Source: Hydrolagus colliei (Eukaryota). Taken from it: DNA of 64,000 bases. How positions within the stretch are numbered: position 1 is the stretch's first letter; every line of letters starts with the position of its first letter. The notes below the pieces were generated by a model. The model had not been told where the DNA came from. It saw only the letters and a list, made by a program, of their open reading frames with translations, and ran no database searches. Both the position numbers and the translations under genes were made by a program. Location: positions 4,526,001 to 4,590,000 of the forward strand of contig CM068756.1 of assembly GCA_035084275.1 (NCBI GenBank), written 5' to 3'. This document shows, piece by piece, positions 13,101 to 60,755 of this stretch.

Positions 13101-13588
13101 ATTCTGCTGTACATTTCAAATTGTAGTTCACAAAAGGTGAAATAGTGCAGTGAAGGGATGTTTTTGTAAGATTTAATAAAAAAATTACAGTTAGAATATT
13201 GATGATGAGAAGTATATTTGCTGCAAAATAATCAAGAATACTGTTAATTTATTACTGAGAGAATTATTTCAAGCTAAGCAATGCTCTAATCCTATTTTAT
13301 GCATACGTAGAACTCGTCTGAAAATTGTTAGAAAATAGGAAAAGAATACACACTTCAAAAAACAAATAAACATTCTCCCCAATAACCAAGTTAACAATTT
13401 CAGTATGATATAATGTATATTAAAATCAGAGTCAGATATAAATTACACAGTTTCATAATCCAAGGCACCTACCTTTCACTCTGTTATTACTTTGATTAAT
13501 TACAGTGGATTAGGAGCATTCTCATCAGAATCAAATCCATTACATAGTTAAACCTGTAAAGGACGTCTAAAGATTTGTTATTTTCACG

Positions 13589-14401
13589 ATGGAGAACGTG
13601 AGTAGGTTTCTAACTCCCATAAACAGTTCCCTGGCAAGCCCAATTTCTGCCGAGAATGGTTCGATCTACAAGTCCATAGAATACAAAAGCGTTTCAGTGA
13701 TGCTCGTGTTGACCATCTGTGGCATCGGTATTATCGGGAATATGATGGTGGTGCTGGTGGTTCTGACGACCAGACACATGCGAACCCCGACTAACTGCTA
13801 CCTCGTCAGTCTGGCTGTAGCTGATCTGATGGTCCTTGTGGCCGCAGGGCTTCCCAATGTCTCTGACAGTCTGACCGAGTCGTGGATCTATGGACATGCA
13901 GGCTGCCTGGCCATCACTTACCTGCAGTACTTGGGCATCAATGTTTCATCCTGCTCCATCACAGCATTCACCGTGGAAAGATACATCGCCATCTGCCACC
14001 CGATGAAAGCCCATTCTATGTGCACCATATCCAGAGCCAAGAAGATCCTAGCCTTCCTCTGGATCATCACCTCCTTCTATTGCATGGTCTGGTTCTTTCT
14101 GGTGGACATCAACATCAACAGCAGGCAGCATGCTGAGTGTGGTTACAAGGTCTCTAGGAACCTGTACTTGCCCATCTATTTCATCGATTTCACCTTCTTC
14201 TACGTCATTCCTCTGGTAGTGGCCACGGTGCTGTACGGATTGATCGGCCGTGTGCTCTTCCTCAGTCCTATTCCAACCAGAATCGAGATGGGAGTCAAGA
14301 GTTGGAAGGAGCGATCTGAGGCTGAACGCAAGAGCTCGGAGGCTCCTGGTAGCACTGTCTCCTGCCGGATAAGCAAAGGGGCCATCTCGTCCAGAAAACA
14401 G
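13589..14401 (+). CDS. TRHR2: Thyrotropin-releasing hormone receptor 2, coding exon 1 (TM1-ICL3)
   Basis: [51 protein letters not shown]...LYGLIGR (type-2-like residues). Donor CAG|GTAATG after SSRKQ, the conserved TRHR intron position. Confidence 0.93.
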
Positions 14402-15285
14402 GTAATGTAGTGGTTCTCTGCGAAACAGAACAAAGGATAAAGTTTGTGATTTGTTTGCGATTTTTTTCTTCGAGCTAAATAATACTTGGGAGTTGTTTTA
14501 GAGAAAAGAAATAGGCTGAAAACCAAATGAAAGAAATAACCATACTTGTCAATATATGAAAAAAGTAAAAAAAAGCAGCATTTATTTTGTTCTGTCGGAT
14601 GTCTGACACACATGGAAACCCATCGCCATGCTGAGGAACAGACTCCCATAAATACATGTCAGCTCCACAATGGAAAATGCCTTTATCTGGAATAGTGTAT
14701 CACTCCCTCCAGAGTAACACACAGTTATACAGATTGTCAGGTTGTACGGTAAATTACAGAATAGGTTATATTTTCCAAATAAACTGATGCACTTTTTTCA
14801 AATTATTAAGAAGATGGATTCAAATACCAGTTAAATATGCCACCAGACACATGGGTTCTGTTTCATTTGATTTCCCTAATGCTTTTGAGCTGCAGCCTTG
14901 TACAGGACTGAGCAGAAATAAAACTCACTTTCTTCAACGTTTAGTGGTGCAAAATCAAAAGGAAAGGCAATAGATAGAACATTTGATTTTTGTTTGTTTA
15001 GGGAATATTATAAATTATACACCATCTCTTGGTTCTCAGTGATTGGATGCTTTTGAGACCCACTTGGAGCCCAGTGAGAAAACAGCACAAACAACAGGGT
15101 GAATCCTTGATGTTTCATGTTATGAACTACTGATCTAACCCAGCATTGATCGAAGATATATATTTAGCAATGTTGTACAAATAGGAAACGATCCTGCTAC
15201 AAACATTAAAACCTCAAAACAGTGAGTGCATATTTCCAAAGTCTGTAAAGGTATCACAATTACGGTTCCTCAAATATTTGCCTTA

Positions 15286-15600
15286 AATAATAATAATACT
15301 TGCATTTGATATAGCACTTTTCACATCTTATTGGCGTCTCAAAGCGCTTCGCGGAATATATTATACAGTGAATTGACTGTATATTTGTGGGCGAAGCGCA
15401 GCAGCCAATTGCACACAGCAGTGACCCACAAATAGTCATGGATTGAAATGGCATTTTATTGTGGGTTTTTTTTGGACGGATTATTATTAGGTGTGTGGAG
15501 AAGGAAACTTGACCAAGGTTTCGCTCTGACCTGCCTGGATTTGAACACAGGTCTCACGCTTGTAAGGCGAGTGCTCTAATCACTGAGCTACAGGAGCTCC
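15286..15600 (-). mobile_element. Full-length tRNA/Deu SINE in the TRHR2 intron
   Basis: Reverse complement of the 3725-4049 family, head to (TAT)n tail. Confidence 0.9.
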
Positions 15601-15719
15601 ACTCCACTTAAAGGAACTATATGTCATCAAACATGCATGGCAATATATTTCAGGAGGAAACTGAATTTAATTTTGGGCAACTTTCAAAAAATAAAACTGC
15701 GTCTGTATTTTCTCCACAG

Positions 15720-16142
15720 GTCACTAAGATGCTGGCTGTGGTGGTTGTTCTCTTTGCTTTGCTCTGGATGCCATACAGGACAATAGTCGTGGTCAACTCC
15801 TTCATAGACAAACAATACGACAATGCTTGGTTCCTTTTATTCTGCAGACTTTGTGTGTACGCCAACAGCGCGATCAACCCAGTCATTTATAACGTAATGT
15901 CTCAGAAATTCAGATCAGCTTTCAAAAAACTGTGCCACTGCAGCCACGATGATACCCAGCGCCGTCCCTTGTACAGAAACCCGGTGAATTACAGTGTGGT
16001 GAGGGAGACAATCAGCGGAAGCCCTGAGGTCAATGGCAAGGAGCAAGCCAAGGCGCCGGCTCAAGAGACCGAAGGCATCAGCGCCAACAAGGAAGACACT
16101 AAACTTACCATAGAAGAGGAGATGTACTTTAGTGTTGTTTGA
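15720..16142 (+). CDS. TRHR2: TRHR2 coding exon 2 (TM6-TM7 and C-tail)
   Basis: Acceptor tctccacag|GTC; [21 protein letters not shown]...[26 protein letters not shown]; spliced product 411 aa. Confidence 0.93.
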
Positions 16143-48728: not shown

Positions 48729-51250
48729 TCATTTAACATGTTCTGAAGTGTGAGAAGAACAGTAATACTTCTTGTGAGCTATGAAGGTGGACAAACTGCT
48801 GAATTTGATGTTGCACAAGCGACAGAATCTGTGGTTTCCATTCTGCACAGGGCTTGGGAGAGACATTGCTGTCTGAACAGATTTGTCTACATTAACGGGT
48901 GAGATGGGCAATTTGTCCACATTAACGGGTGGGACGGGTGATTTGGAGCCTGGATCTGTGGGAACATCAGGCACAGGGGAGATTTTCACAACTTTAGGGG
49001 AGGCAGTCAGTATAGGTTTAAGAGACATGTTCTGCAACGGGTTTTCACTCGATGACTGGGGTGAGACAGATTCTCTTTGATCTTTGGCATTCAAGATGTT
49101 CTTCTGAATCTGAGTGCCTGGCTGAAGAGATGAGGCAGGAATTTTAGAATTGTGAGGGCTGCTTTCAGAAATATTGTTTGTCTGGTGTTTGCCTTGTGAT
49201 GGAGTGTCCATCATATTGCTCTCGGCTGTATGCCCAGTTGAAGTCTGTTTGGTCAACAGCAAGCCATGAACAAGTTTAAAATGTTCAATAAGGTCTCCTT
49301 CAATAGGTCCATTAAGTGGACAGTAAGGGCAAACTACTGGAGTACGTTGGGGTGCTGGGAAGGACTTAATGTGAGGGGACAACTGAGGTCTATCTTGCAA
49401 AACCTCTGCACTGTAGTGATATACTCCTGGAGAATTATTTGGAGTAATATACGGATGGGCCAAGTGTGGACTTTCTGGAACACATTTAGCATTTACATTT
49501 TTTTTGTTCAATTCCTCGGATTGCATAGGAGGGTCTGCAACATCCGTCTTGTTGCTCTTTCTGGGTTTCACTGAAGCAGTGGCTTGTATCTTTCCTCTGG
49601 CAAGATGTTCCACGTTACTGTGCAGAACTGCCGTAGCGGGGCAATAGTACTTCTTATGGGCAAGGTAGTTTTCGACATTGTTGAAACTGATTTTGCAGGA
49701 GGTACATTCATGATAGTCCGTCAAAATATTGGGGGCTGGAACTAATGGTGGAGTGTGGACTTTTCCAGGGTCTTCCTGAATGCGGGATTTTTTGCTGAGA
49801 TCAATGGGTCCATCTACATCCGAACTGGAGCCCGGCGATGAAGTTGCACTAGATCGAGTTAACATGTAACCCGTTGACACAGAGAGAGCATCAGTAGACT
49901 TTGAAGAGATCGGCAAAGATTCTTGCTTTATTTTTACAGCTTCTGCATTGTTGGGCAGCCCGCTGCTTTGAAGCACGGCCGCTGAAGGGCTTTGGATGGA
50001 CACTTCATTTGCAGGAGGTGGGGGCAGGGGCTGATGTCCGACGCTGTGGATCTCATACAACTTTCTACGTTTGCGAGTGCGTACGTTTTGCTGGAGGAAT
50101 GGCACTTTCCCACTGTTTGGCCTTCGAAGAGGAGGGTCGTGTCTGGAAGCACAGTAGAAACGCTTGTGCACCACATAGGTTTCATGTCGGGTGAACCTTA
50201 TATTGCAAGCTTCACACACAGTCCTGTTGGGGTCGTCTTCGGAGTCGTCGAGGGAGTTGCTTGGACTCTGGCTACCTTCACTGACTCTACTGAGGCTGTC
50301 TCCTTCGGACGAGGTGTCCTTTGTGACATTCTCCTCCGTTTTGATTTCCGGCGGTTTAACGTCTACATTTGCTTCTGGATCAGTCTGAGAAGATGAAGCC
50401 AGCTGAGTTTCGACGACGAGAGGTGCTGGACTAGGAGACTCCTGGTCAGCAATGTTGGGAGGTGCTGAGTGTTTGGTAGACTCAACAGTGGTGTTGTCTG
50501 GCTGCTGGTGCCTGCTGGAACAATACAGCCGTTTGTGTACCAAGTAGTTGTTGACGTTATTGAACGTAATGTCACACTCGTAGCAGGTTGCTCCTTTTTG
50601 AATGGGGGCACCCGCATAAAGCAGCGGGTAATTATTCACCCCTTGCTTCAGTCTGCTGTGAACCAACTCCGACATTTTGGCTAGGATTTCTGAAGCTTGT
50701 GGAAACGTGGAAGTTTCGTGATTGAACATGTACGGTATTAACACGGTTCCTTCCGGCATCACCGAGGCTGCCCCATAATGGACCGGACTGGAGGCCGGTG
50801 TCGGGCTTGAGCGCTCAGACTTCACTTTGACCACAGGCGTGCTCCTCGGAGACGAGGCGCTGGAGGAATTATCAGTGGTCGGATTTGCCGGACCTTCCAC
50901 GGTCTTCTCACTCTCACTCTCACATTGGGAATGTACACCTCTCTGAGGCTCCTCTTTGATTTTCACAGCTCGAATGACTTCCTCAGGAACTTCTTTTCTG
51001 GAAGCTGGAGTGCCCCGCTCATCTGTGCCCTTTGCTTCCTCTGTACTGTGCTGAGATTCACTAGCTTGGTGTCCCTCCATGTGCTTGGCTAGCTCAGTTG
51101 TGCTTCTCAAATGCCTGTGGCATTGACTGCACTGGAGTGCACCTTGTACGAGATGCAGTGAGCTGTGCTGCTGCAAGCTTGATTCGGAATCACCAACGAA
51201 CTCGCACTTGCTGCACTTCAGGCTTGCGGAAGGATCTGCGACCTGCAAAC
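48729..51250 (-). CDS. ZFPM1: ZFPM1/FOG1 last coding exon (seven zinc fingers, PIDLS CtBP motif, RKRRK NLS)
   Basis: Acceptor catctcag|GT (phase 1). PQASEILAKMSELVHSRL; CCHC fingers CYEC, CEAC, CTSC, CRLC; C2H2 CPYC...HFKLVH (FOG1-type); PIDLS at 49794-49808; ends EHVK*. Confidence 0.96.
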
Positions 51251-51453: not shown

Positions 51454-51582
51454 CTGATAAAGGAGGGACAAGGGAGTATAAGTCACCCTTTGCACCTGGC
51501 TGGCAGGCCATGTGATTGGTAACCAGATGAGTGTACAGGATTTCTCTTGTGGTTGCGACAAATCCACAGCCCTGACAAACAC
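51454..51582 (-). CDS. ZFPM1: ZFPM1 exon, ZF4 (GVCQGCGFVATTREILYTHLVTNHMACQPGAKGDLYS)
   Basis: 129 nt, phase 1-1, acacag| and |GTAAGA. Confidence 0.95.
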
Positions 51583-51797
51583 CTGTGTCAAACCACACCA
51601 CAATAATCTTAGTGCTGTCTGTTTGTCATCCACTCTCTCACACCTAGATCTTTGAGGAGCGAGGGGCACATCATCACCCCACCCATTCATCTCAGGATTG
51701 CCTCCTGCACTAAAATAAGATGATTCACCTAATAAACTGGCAAATCATGAGCCTATTGGCGGATTTGCTGGGAGAACAAGGATAAAGCAATATAACC

Positions 51798-52121
51798 ATT
51801 TCCACTCGTGGGTGAATCTGTGACTCGTGGTCACAGATTTAAAATAGTTTCAAGGCGAAGTAGAGGGGAGCTGAGGAGAAATTTTTTCACTCAGCGAGTT
51901 GTTCGAATCTGGAATGCATTGCCTGAAAAGGTGGTGGAGGCTGATTCGATAACAACTTTTAAAAGGGAATTAGATCTTTATTTAGGGAGAACGGGTTTAT
52001 TAGGCTATGGGGAGCGGGCAGGGCAGTGGGATTGAATCGCTCTTTTCAAAGAGCCGGCACAGACTAGATGGGCCGAATGGCCTCCTTTTGTGCCGTAAAA
52101 TTCTATGATTCTATGATTCTA
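51798..52121 (+). mobile_element. Young 5'-truncated CR1 LINE
   Basis: FPLVGESVTRGHRFKIVSRRSRGELRRNFFTQRVVRIWNALP...GYGERAGQWD*, (ATTCTATG)n tail, apparent TSD TAACCA. Confidence 0.93.
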
Positions 52122-54926: not shown

Positions 54927-55022
54927 CATTCAGTGAGTCCGTGTGTACTTTCAGGTGTCGTTCACAGTTTGCCTTTGTTGTAAACGCTGACAGACAGATT
55001 AGACACACAAAAGGCCTTTCAC
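54927..55022 (-). CDS. ZFPM1: ZFPM1 exon, ZF3 (GERPFVCLICLSAFTTKANCERHLKVHTDSLN)
   Basis: 96 nt, phase 1-1, gctcag| and |GTAATT; FOG1-diagnostic sequence. Confidence 0.96.
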
Positions 55023-57001: not shown

Positions 57002-57333
57002 TCATAGAATCATAGAATTTTACGGCACAAAAGGAGGCCATTCGGCCCATCTAGTCTGTGCCGGCTCTTTGAAAAGAGCGATTCAATCCCACTGCCCTGC
57101 CCGCTCCCCATAGCCTAATAGACCCGTTCTCCCTAAATAAAGATCTAATTCCCTTTTAAAAGTTGTTATCGAATCAGCCTCCACCACCTTTTCAGGCAAT
57201 GCATTCCAGATTCGAACAACTCGCTGAGTGAAAAAATTTCTCCTCAGCTCCCCTCTACTGCGCCTTGAAACTATTTTAAATCTGTGACCACGAGTCACAG
57301 ATTCACCCACGAGTGGAAATAGTTTTTCTCTAT
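57002..57333 (-). mobile_element. Young 5'-truncated CR1 LINE, near-identical inverse of the 51798 copy
   Basis: Same translated ORF in the track (57083-57310); 2 mismatches in 319 bp by manual comparison. Confidence 0.93.
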
Positions 57334-59392: not shown

Positions 59393-59617
59393 CGCTATGG
59401 CTACGCATGTGAATTTCCAGAGAGCTGGCGCTGGGGCAACTTTTGTTGCACTGCGGGAAAGAGCAGATGCGTTCGTGCGGTGATGGTTCCTTGGGTTTCT
59501 CCTCTGTGGGAATAGACAAGGGTTTTTGTCGGCTCGCACAGTAATACATCAGGTGAGCTTGCAGATTCCGTTCGCTTCTGTACCAGATCCCACAGGATTT
59601 ACAAGGAAAAATGTCCT
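59393..59617 (-). CDS. ZFPM1: ZFPM1 exon, ZF1 (CCHC) and ZF2 (C2H2)
   Basis: KDIFPCKSCGIWYRSERNLQAHLMYYCASRQ...CSFPQCNKSCPSASSLEIHMRSHS; 225 nt, ttttcag| and |GTAAGA. Confidence 0.96.
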
Positions 59618-60509: not shown

Positions 60510-60755
60510 TGTTGACAACAGCAGTTGCTAAAATGGCAGCCATCCCAGCCTGCTGAGGGAGAAGCTGGATGTCGGAATGTAAAGTGGCTGGGTACATGGC
60601 TGAGGGGTCAGAGATCTCTGCGGGTTCCACCAGCTCAGTTTTAACACTGTGGTTTGACTTCGGGGACTTGCTGGTCTGATCCGGAGTGACAATAATTGCA
60701 GTTAAGTTCTCCCCCTCTGCGATGGGCTTTGTCGTTTTACACCAAATCTGGTCAC
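60510..60755 (-). CDS. ZFPM1: ZFPM1 exon, end of PR-like domain to LLPQQAGMAAILATAVVN (upstream exons outside window)
   Basis: 246 nt, tgtgcag| and |GTAAGT; phase matches the next exon. Confidence 0.94.

What the first reader, a model, noticed from the sequence alone, without database searches (positions are those of the whole stretch)
51069..51221. An 11-finger FOG1: extra C2H2 pair resembling FOG2 ZF3/ZF4, suggesting reciprocal finger loss between paralogs
Seen: the last ZFPM1 exon opens with two canonical C-x2-C-x12-H-x3-H fingers (SASLKCSKCEFVGDSESSLQQHSSLH-LVQGALQCSQCHRHLRSTTELAKHMEGH) in addition to the nine expected, giving 11. Established: mammalian FOG1 has 9 fingers and FOG2 has 8. 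From memory, human FOG2's last exon starts ...[54 protein letters not shown], matching this pair in position, linker and spacing, and FOG2 lacks the GERPFVCLIC and GVC exons. Inference: the ancestral FOG had both pairs, mammalian FOG1 lost this one and FOG2 lost the other, so the conventionally numbered ZF3/4 of FOG1 and FOG2 would not be orthologous.
Basis: partly seen in the sequence, partly recalled or inferred. Interest (0 to 1): 0.8.

Follow-up and report, generated by a model that had tools for sequence, protein, structure and literature searches.

The report
FOG paralogs lost different finger pairs
This chimaera's FOG1 gene encodes 11 zinc fingers, and its two extra fingers match fingers 3 and 4 of the sister protein FOG2, so the two paralogs likely each lost a different ancestral pair and the same-numbered fingers 3-4 of mammalian FOG1 and FOG2 are likely not equivalents.

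Summary
Confirmed. The minus-strand gene is ZFPM1/FOG1 of a chimaera-like fish and has 11 fingers; the extra pair (A, B) opens the last exon and is transcribed. A profile built only from FOG2 ZF3+ZF4 scores the window pair above all 278 unrelated finger pairs, as it does 14 of 14 shark A-B pairs, but 0 of 165 FOG1 ZF3-ZF4 pairs. The genome's own FOG2 has the same phase-1 exon start and no ZF3/ZF4 exons. FOG1 lost the pair stepwise: B occurs only in cartilaginous fish; A persists in bony fish, amphibians, reptiles and marsupials and is a Cys-less remnant in birds and placental mammals. Amphioxus and a hemichordate have A-B-like pairs and echinoderms a ZF3-ZF4-like pair, which favours reciprocal loss. 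New here: RNA reads show an isoform skipping both ZF3 and ZF4 exons, giving FOG1 a FOG2-like array. Limits: a tree test does not reject the conventional pairing, ZF3 could be an RREB1-type gain, function is untested, and a 'putative tenth finger' of fish and frogs is already in print. No earlier scan note concerned FOG genes.

The parts
51153..51215 (-). Extra C2H2 finger A; counterpart of FOG2 ZF3
   Evidence: kept in bony fish, amphibians, reptiles and marsupials
51069..51131 (-). Extra C2H2 finger B; counterpart of FOG2 ZF4
   Evidence: among FOG1 found only in cartilaginous fish, intact in 19 of 23 species
48729..51250 (-). Last coding exon of ZFPM1: A, B, CCHC ZF5-7, C2H2 ZF8, CCHC ZF9, PIDLS motif; phase-1 acceptor at 51250
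   Evidence: read depth drops to zero at the acceptor
51454..51582 (-). ZF4 cassette exon, 129 nt, phase 1-1; no counterpart in FOG2
54927..55022 (-). ZF3 cassette exon, 96 nt, phase 1-1; no counterpart in FOG2
59393..59617 (-). ZF1 (CCHC) + ZF2 (C2H2) exon; its end is spliced straight to the last exon in the skip isoform
   Evidence: 6 reads in run X11
60510..60755 (-). Exon with the end of the PR domain region; further upstream exons lie beyond the window (L010, L011)

Best explanation
The window holds an 11-finger FOG1 whose extra pair (A-B) matches FOG2 fingers 3-4 in sequence and exon position; it likely preserves the finger cluster of the pre-duplication vertebrate FOG, from which FOG2 likely lost the two ZF3/ZF4 exons while FOG1 likely lost B and then A. 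Shown: 11 fingers, exon structure, transcription, the skip isoform, the taxonomic pattern. Inferred: ancestry of both pairs and direction of loss. Likely mechanism: ZF3 and ZF4 sit on in-frame phase 1-1 cassette exons that are already skipped in some transcripts, so their deletion from FOG2 would leave an intact protein. A and B sit inside the last exon and decayed by point change and small deletion: B in the bony-vertebrate stem (and partly again in stingrays and mantas), A in birds and in placental mammals, where the helical half survives. Function, inferred: A-B likely works as a protein-contact module rather than a DNA reader, and B is under weak constraint.
For: Paralog identity: a tree on ZF5-to-end only places the window in FOG1 at 100/100. 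Exons: own-genome FOG2 goes from the ZF2 exon through a 4.0-kb intron with no finger pattern or exon relic to a last exon with the same phase-1 start. Sequence: FOG2-only pair profile gives window z 7.2, above all 278 unrelated pairs; shark A-B 14 of 14 above; FOG1 ZF3-4 0 of 165. Non-ligand identity to FOG2 pairs is 0.29 for the window pair, 0.10 for FOG1 ZF3-4, 0.13 for unrelated pairs. The skip isoform aligns colinearly with FOG2. Pattern: B 14 of 15 chondrichthyan vs 0 of 172 other FOG1 proteins; A absent in 13 of 13 birds and 4 of 4 placentals with a remnant helix. Outgroups: amphioxus and hemichordate pairs fit A-B/FOG2 profiles (z 4.1-4.6, 0-2 of 278 higher); 3 of 3 echinoderm pairs fit FOG1 ZF3+ZF4 above all 278. 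Splicing: 6 reads join ZF2 exon to last exon; RefSeq double-skip isoforms in 3 of 23 chondrichthyan species, ZF3-only skip in 15 of 23.
Against: An AU test on the 49-column pair alignment does not reject FOG1 ZF3-4 + FOG2 ZF3-4 as one clade (p 0.132), and one unrelated pair fell in the A-B/FOG2 group. The single-finger tree nests ZF4 among A and FOG2 ZF3 and leaves B unresolved. Plain BLASTP and MAFFT lay FOG2 ZF3-4 on FOG1 ZF3-4 or on ZF4-A. As a single finger B is weaker: 6 of 13 above the background maximum. The echinoderm second finger fits A about as well as ZF4, and no single outgroup protein carries clear copies of both pairs. FOG1 ZF3 is 14/17 identical to an RREB1-type finger but only 5-8/17 to invertebrate FOG fingers in that slot. 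The three cyclostome FOGs examined lack the whole cluster and so do not help. The skip junction rests on 6 reads from one sample of a relative. The AlphaFold model is low-confidence (pLDDT 59).
Confidence: 0.78

Rival explanations
1. One-sided history: A-B is ancestral and equals FOG2 ZF3-4, but FOG1 gained ZF3 (from an RREB1-type gene) and ZF4 (by duplicating A) after the duplication. FOG2 then lost nothing here, though the numbering mismatch still holds.
For: FOG1 ZF3 core is 14/17 identical to a finger of amphioxus RREB1-like and 12/17 to a vertebrate RREB1 finger, with the same preceding ERP linker. ZF4 groups with A in the single-finger tree. Both exons are symmetric cassettes. No relic in the FOG2 intron.
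Against: Three echinoderm FOGs carry, right after ZF1, a finger with the same rare Asn-Cys helix followed 7 residues later by a ZF4/A-like finger, scoring above all 278 unrelated pairs, RREB1 pairs included. Amphioxus has two C2H2 fingers between ZF1 and the A-B-like pair where FOG2 has one. A relic would not be expected after more than 450 My.
Confidence: 0.17
2. Conventional numbering is right: FOG2 ZF3-4 equal FOG1 ZF3-4 (introns lost, sequence diverged), and A-B is a separate pair.
For: Same 7-residue spacing; default aligners pair them; AU test does not reject it.
Against: Non-ligand identity 0.10, no better than unrelated pairs; 0 of 165 above background. It needs two intron losses plus chance matching of the exon start, linker and residues of A-B.
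Confidence: 0.04
3. A and B are non-functional leftovers or a chance pattern in a disordered linker.
For: B's non-ligand positions are no more conserved among 20 chondrichthyans (0.67) than non-finger sequence (0.69-0.78); four myliobatiform rays lost B's second Cys; low pLDDT.
Against: All four ligands of A are kept in 15 of 15 chondrichthyan, 84 of 85 ray-finned, 20 of 20 amphibian and 22 of 22 crocodilian/lepidosaur proteins; B ligands in 19 of 23 chondrichthyan species; FOG2 keeps both in 122 of 122.
Confidence: 0.05

Closest known systems
Mammalian FOG1/ZFPM1 (nine fingers; PMC4146578, passages read)
   Same: PR domain, five CCHC fingers, ZF2-ZF4, ZF8 and PIDLS motif; same clade
   Different: Two more C2H2 fingers after ZF4; placentals keep only a Cys-less helix remnant of A
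[quoted passage not shown]
   Same: Almost certainly finger A (inferred: it is the only extra finger in fish and frog FOG1; the figure file could not be read)
   Different: No eleventh finger and no link to FOG2 ZF3-4 in the passages read; that alignment held FOG-1 proteins only
Vertebrate FOG2/ZFPM2 (eight fingers)
   Same: ZF1, ZF2, then the A-B pair at the start of the last exon with the same intron phase
   Different: No ZF3/ZF4 exons and no ZF8; separate clade
Amphioxus ZFPM1-like XP_035679450.1 (12 fingers), hemichordate and echinoderm FOGs
   Same: PR domain, CCHC fingers and a C2H2 cluster between ZF1 and ZF5 with A-B-like or ZF3-ZF4-like pairs
   Different: Slot-by-slot assignment is partly ambiguous; amphioxus has further C2H2 fingers that vertebrates lack
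RREB1-type fingers with the FTxKANCERH helix
   Same: 12-14 of 17 core residues identical to FOG1 ZF3
   Different: H-x4-H spacing, unrelated protein context; concerns ZF3, not the A-B pair

Membership tests
FOG1/ZFPM1 | Five FOG-type CCHC fingers | tested here: met
   (PF25445, four stretches in the last exon; ZF1 at 59538-59603)
FOG1/ZFPM1 | Groups with FOG1, not FOG2, on sequence outside the disputed fingers | tested here: met
   100/100; 91% identity to Callorhinchus ZFPM1
FOG1/ZFPM1 | PR domain | tested here: met
   PF21182 in the Callorhinchus orthologue; matching exons at window 60510-60755, L010 and L011
FOG1/ZFPM1 | CtBP motif PxDLS | tested here: met
FOG1/ZFPM1 | N-terminal NuRD motif | not tested
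   First exons not found in the 30 kb fetched beyond the window; present in the Callorhinchus X1 record
Orthologue of FOG2 ZF3-ZF4 | Same place in the gene: start of last exon, phase-1 acceptor, no intron inside the pair | tested here: met
Orthologue of FOG2 ZF3-ZF4 | Specific sequence similarity above unrelated C2H2 pairs | tested here: met
Orthologue of FOG2 ZF3-ZF4 | Groups with FOG2 ZF3-4 in a tree, alternative rejected | tested here: inconclusive
   pair tree groups them at 95/97 with one stray; AU p 0.132; single-finger tree unresolved
Classical C2H2 finger | C-x2-C-x12-H-x3-H spacing | tested here: met
   B is the best PF00096 stretch of the last exon
Classical C2H2 finger | Beta-beta-alpha fold and zinc binding | tested here: inconclusive
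   single-sequence model shows two hairpin+helix units at pLDDT 59; zinc binding not testable here
DNA-binding tandem C2H2 array | TGEKP-type linker and basic recognition-helix residues | tested here: not met
   sequence directly: linker LVQGALQ; A has Ser/Gln at the recognition positions (recalled numbering) and an acidic helix start

The most novel reading that the evidence does not exclude
The ancestral vertebrate FOG made two splice forms, with and without the ZF3/ZF4 cassette. After duplication the paralogs split these forms: FOG2 fixed the skipped form by deleting the exons, FOG1 kept the cassette and let A-B decay. Cartilaginous fish still show the intermediate, switching FOG1 between a FOG1-type and a FOG2-type finger cluster by regulated splicing.
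Probability: 0.35. Interest if true: 0.68.

Novelty: new variant of a known kind. Interest (0 to 1): 0.52.

Why it matters
FOG1 and FOG2 are the main GATA cofactors in blood, heart and gonad, and their non-GATA-binding C2H2 fingers are poorly understood. If fingers 3-4 of the two are different modules, results on one (such as partner binding by FOG1 finger 3) cannot be carried over to the other by number, and ZFPM2 variants in these fingers should be read against the A-B pair of fish FOG1. It is also a clean case of paralogs dividing an ancestral domain set, with decay stages visible across living vertebrates and a splice isoform that mimics the other paralog. It does not reveal a new kind of system.

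Tried and rejected
Single-finger tree, 80 rows x 26 columns: unresolved. AU test: no rejection. Default BLASTP and MAFFT misplace the pair because the spacing is the same. ESM Atlas search returned only generic C2H2 clusters. Relic search for ZF3/ZF4 exons in the FOG2 intron: no better than 100 shuffles. Own-genome search with the ZF3 exon found no closer copy; the best other hit was an unrelated C2H2 gene. Cyclostome FOGs uninformative. The first finger classification and first isoform tally used faulty patterns and were replaced. The run search listed no holder on record as RNA; the RNA evidence comes from laying the runs. Ten literature searches found no paper on an 11-finger FOG1, on finger orthology between FOG1 and FOG2, or on ZF3/ZF4 skipping; the library lacks most subscription papers, and the FOG-2 cloning papers, the 1999 EMBO J finger paper, the 2002 domain paper and two zebrafish papers were not held. 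The scan's own notes had nothing on FOG. No complex prediction was run, as no binding is claimed.

Full report
Observation. A six-frame scan finds 11 finger patterns in one minus-strand gene. The two in question lie at 51153-51215 (A) and 51069-51131 (B), at the start of an 839-codon last exon. Exon ends are canonical; the ZF1/ZF2 exon ends in phase 1, the ZF3 (96 nt) and ZF4 (129 nt) exons are phase 1-1, and the last exon starts in phase 1. The best database hit is Callorhinchus ZFPM1 at 91% identity, so the source is a chimaera-like fish (inference). A tree built only from ZF5 to the end, 25 rows, puts the window in FOG1 at 100/100.

FOG2 in the same genome. A search of the own genome found one other FOG locus. 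It has eight fingers: a ZF1/ZF2 exon, a 4.0-kb intron, and a last exon that opens in phase 1 with G-L-K-V and a C2H2 pair; FOG1's opens G-L-Q-V. The intron holds no finger pattern and no relic of the ZF3 or ZF4 exon above 100 shuffles. Of 122 FOG2 proteins, 122 have the pair and none has a FOG1 ZF3- or ZF4-type finger (the one motif hit was in a linker). Of the 120, 88 have eight fingers and 32 are six-finger isoforms or fragments without ZF1/ZF2.

Which fingers correspond. With a profile made only from FOG2 ZF3+ZF4, ligand columns removed, the window pair scores z 7.2, above all 278 unrelated tandem pairs; 14 of 14 shark A-B pairs exceed the background maximum and 0 of 165 FOG1 ZF3-ZF4 pairs do. 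Finger by finger, FOG2 ZF3 picks out A (98 of 102 distinct sequences above the background maximum; ZF3 0 of 13, ZF4 0 of 55) and FOG2 ZF4 picks out B less sharply (6 of 13). Non-ligand identity to FOG2 pairs is 0.29 for the window pair, 0.10 for FOG1 ZF3-4 and 0.13 for unrelated pairs. The Callorhinchus isoform lacking ZF3 and ZF4 aligns with FOG2 through ZF2, the exon junction, A and B with one 3-residue gap. Against this: the pair tree groups A-B, FOG2, amphioxus and hemichordate at 95/97 but includes one unrelated pair, and an AU test does not reject the conventional grouping (p 0.132, 49 columns); the single-finger tree is unresolved and nests ZF4 near A. Default aligners put FOG2's pair on FOG1 ZF3-4, which probably explains the usual numbering; that papers treat these fingers as equivalents is recalled, as the cloning papers were not held.

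Distribution in FOG1. Among 187 proteins, grouped by hand from the sources' names, B occurs in 14 of 15 chondrichthyan and 0 of 172 others. A occurs in 15 of 15 chondrichthyan, 2 of 2 lungfish/coelacanth, 84 of 85 ray-finned (the miss has a one-residue insertion), 20 of 20 amphibian, 13 of 14 turtle, 22 of 22 crocodilian/lepidosaur, 2 of 3 marsupial, 0 of 13 bird, 0 of 4 placental and 6 of 9 unnamed proteins. These are top hits, not a random sample, and the placental sample is small. Placentals keep the helix half of A without the cysteines; 12 of 13 birds keep a decayed copy. Across 23 chondrichthyan species B is intact in 19; four stingray and manta species lost its second Cys. A and B are the least conserved fingers among 20 chondrichthyans (0.82 and 0.67 against 0.86-1.00), and B is no more conserved than non-finger sequence.

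Outgroups. A profile search (names) gave amphioxus FOG with 12 fingers, including two C2H2 fingers after ZF1 and then a pair fitting A+B (z 4.6, 0 of 278 higher); a hemichordate pair fits FOG2 ZF3+ZF4 (z 4.6, 1 of 278 higher); starfish, crinoid and urchin pairs fit FOG1 ZF3+ZF4 above all 278 (z 5.8-8.6) but fit ZF3+A about as well. So A-B and a ZF3-type finger likely predate vertebrates; ZF4 is less certain. Protostome FOGs have another layout, and the two lamprey and one hagfish FOG examined lack the cluster. A caution: FOG1 ZF3 is 14/17 identical to an amphioxus RREB1-like finger and only 5-8/17 to invertebrate FOG fingers in the slot, which leaves room for gain or homogenisation in FOG1.

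RNA. Three runs from one sample of a ~99%-alike relative (27-30% of each run read) cover A and B on one strand and fall to zero in the intron. In run X11 six reads continue from the acceptor straight into the end of the ZF2 exon at 59394, skipping both cassettes. Contigs from a more distant relative show the ZF3-ZF4 and ZF4-last exon joints. X10 has reads on the ZF4 exon but no listed joint. Among 75 named records of 23 chondrichthyan species, predicted isoforms skip both exons in 3 species, ZF3 alone in 15 and ZF4 alone in 2; only 16 species had more than one record. A teleost record also skips both. These are automatic models, and inclusion levels cannot be read from them.

How it likely works. 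The CCHC fingers, PIDLS motif and PR domain mark an ordinary GATA cofactor (established knowledge; PMC4146578 passages). [quoted passage not shown] A solved FOG1 finger, 1SRK, matches ZF3; that this is the TACC3-binding finger is recalled. Skipping would then remove that site and leave a FOG2-like cluster. A single-sequence fold shows two hairpin-plus-helix units at pLDDT 59 and adds little.

Novelty. PMC3250481 (passages and supplementary legend read; the .doc figure itself unreadable, and it may bear on which finger is meant) notes a putative tenth finger in fish and frogs. Ten searches of the held library found nothing on an eleventh finger, on the A-B/FOG2 correspondence or on ZF3/ZF4 skipping; key older papers were not available. 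RefSeq shark proteins contain all 11 fingers. PMC2785561 and PMC7761934 (passages) and PMC3990687 (passages) added nothing on finger orthology.

Verdict. A new variant of a known family, of moderate interest.

Noticed in passing
window 51251 / 59394-59423: Six RNA reads splice the ZF2 exon directly to the last exon, an isoform without ZF3 and ZF4.
   Followed up: yes
window 54927-55022: FOG1 ZF3 is 12-14/17 identical to an RREB1-type finger, far closer than to invertebrate FOG fingers in the same slot.
   Followed up: partly
window 51794-52116 and 57002-57324: A 323-nt, 99%-identical inverted pair of an abundant short repeat flanks the ZF3 exon and could loop it out in pre-mRNA; the family is young, so the likeness may be chance.
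   Followed up: partly
P0311 (lamprey ZFPM2-like): Lacks the whole C2H2 cluster after ZF1 but keeps a ZF8-position finger that jawed-vertebrate FOG2 lacks.
   Followed up: partly
P0013, P0402, P0407, P0412: Stingrays and mantas have lost the second Cys of finger B, a separate decay event.
   Followed up: partly
P0437 and many long teleost FOG1: Many spiny-rayed fish FOG1 proteins show one finger fewer in the C-terminal half, apparently ZF8.
   Followed up: no
window 13571-16142 (+): Two-exon seven-transmembrane receptor gene resembling a thyrotropin-releasing hormone receptor (name recalled, not tested).
   Followed up: no
window 51454-51475: The ZF4 exon is 15 nt shorter than in the Callorhinchus record and in the more distant relative's contigs; frame is kept.
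   Followed up: yes
FOG2 six-finger records: Many FOG2 predicted isoforms skip the ZF1/ZF2 exon in sharks, turtles, frogs and a primate; one shark FOG1 record does too.
   Followed up: no
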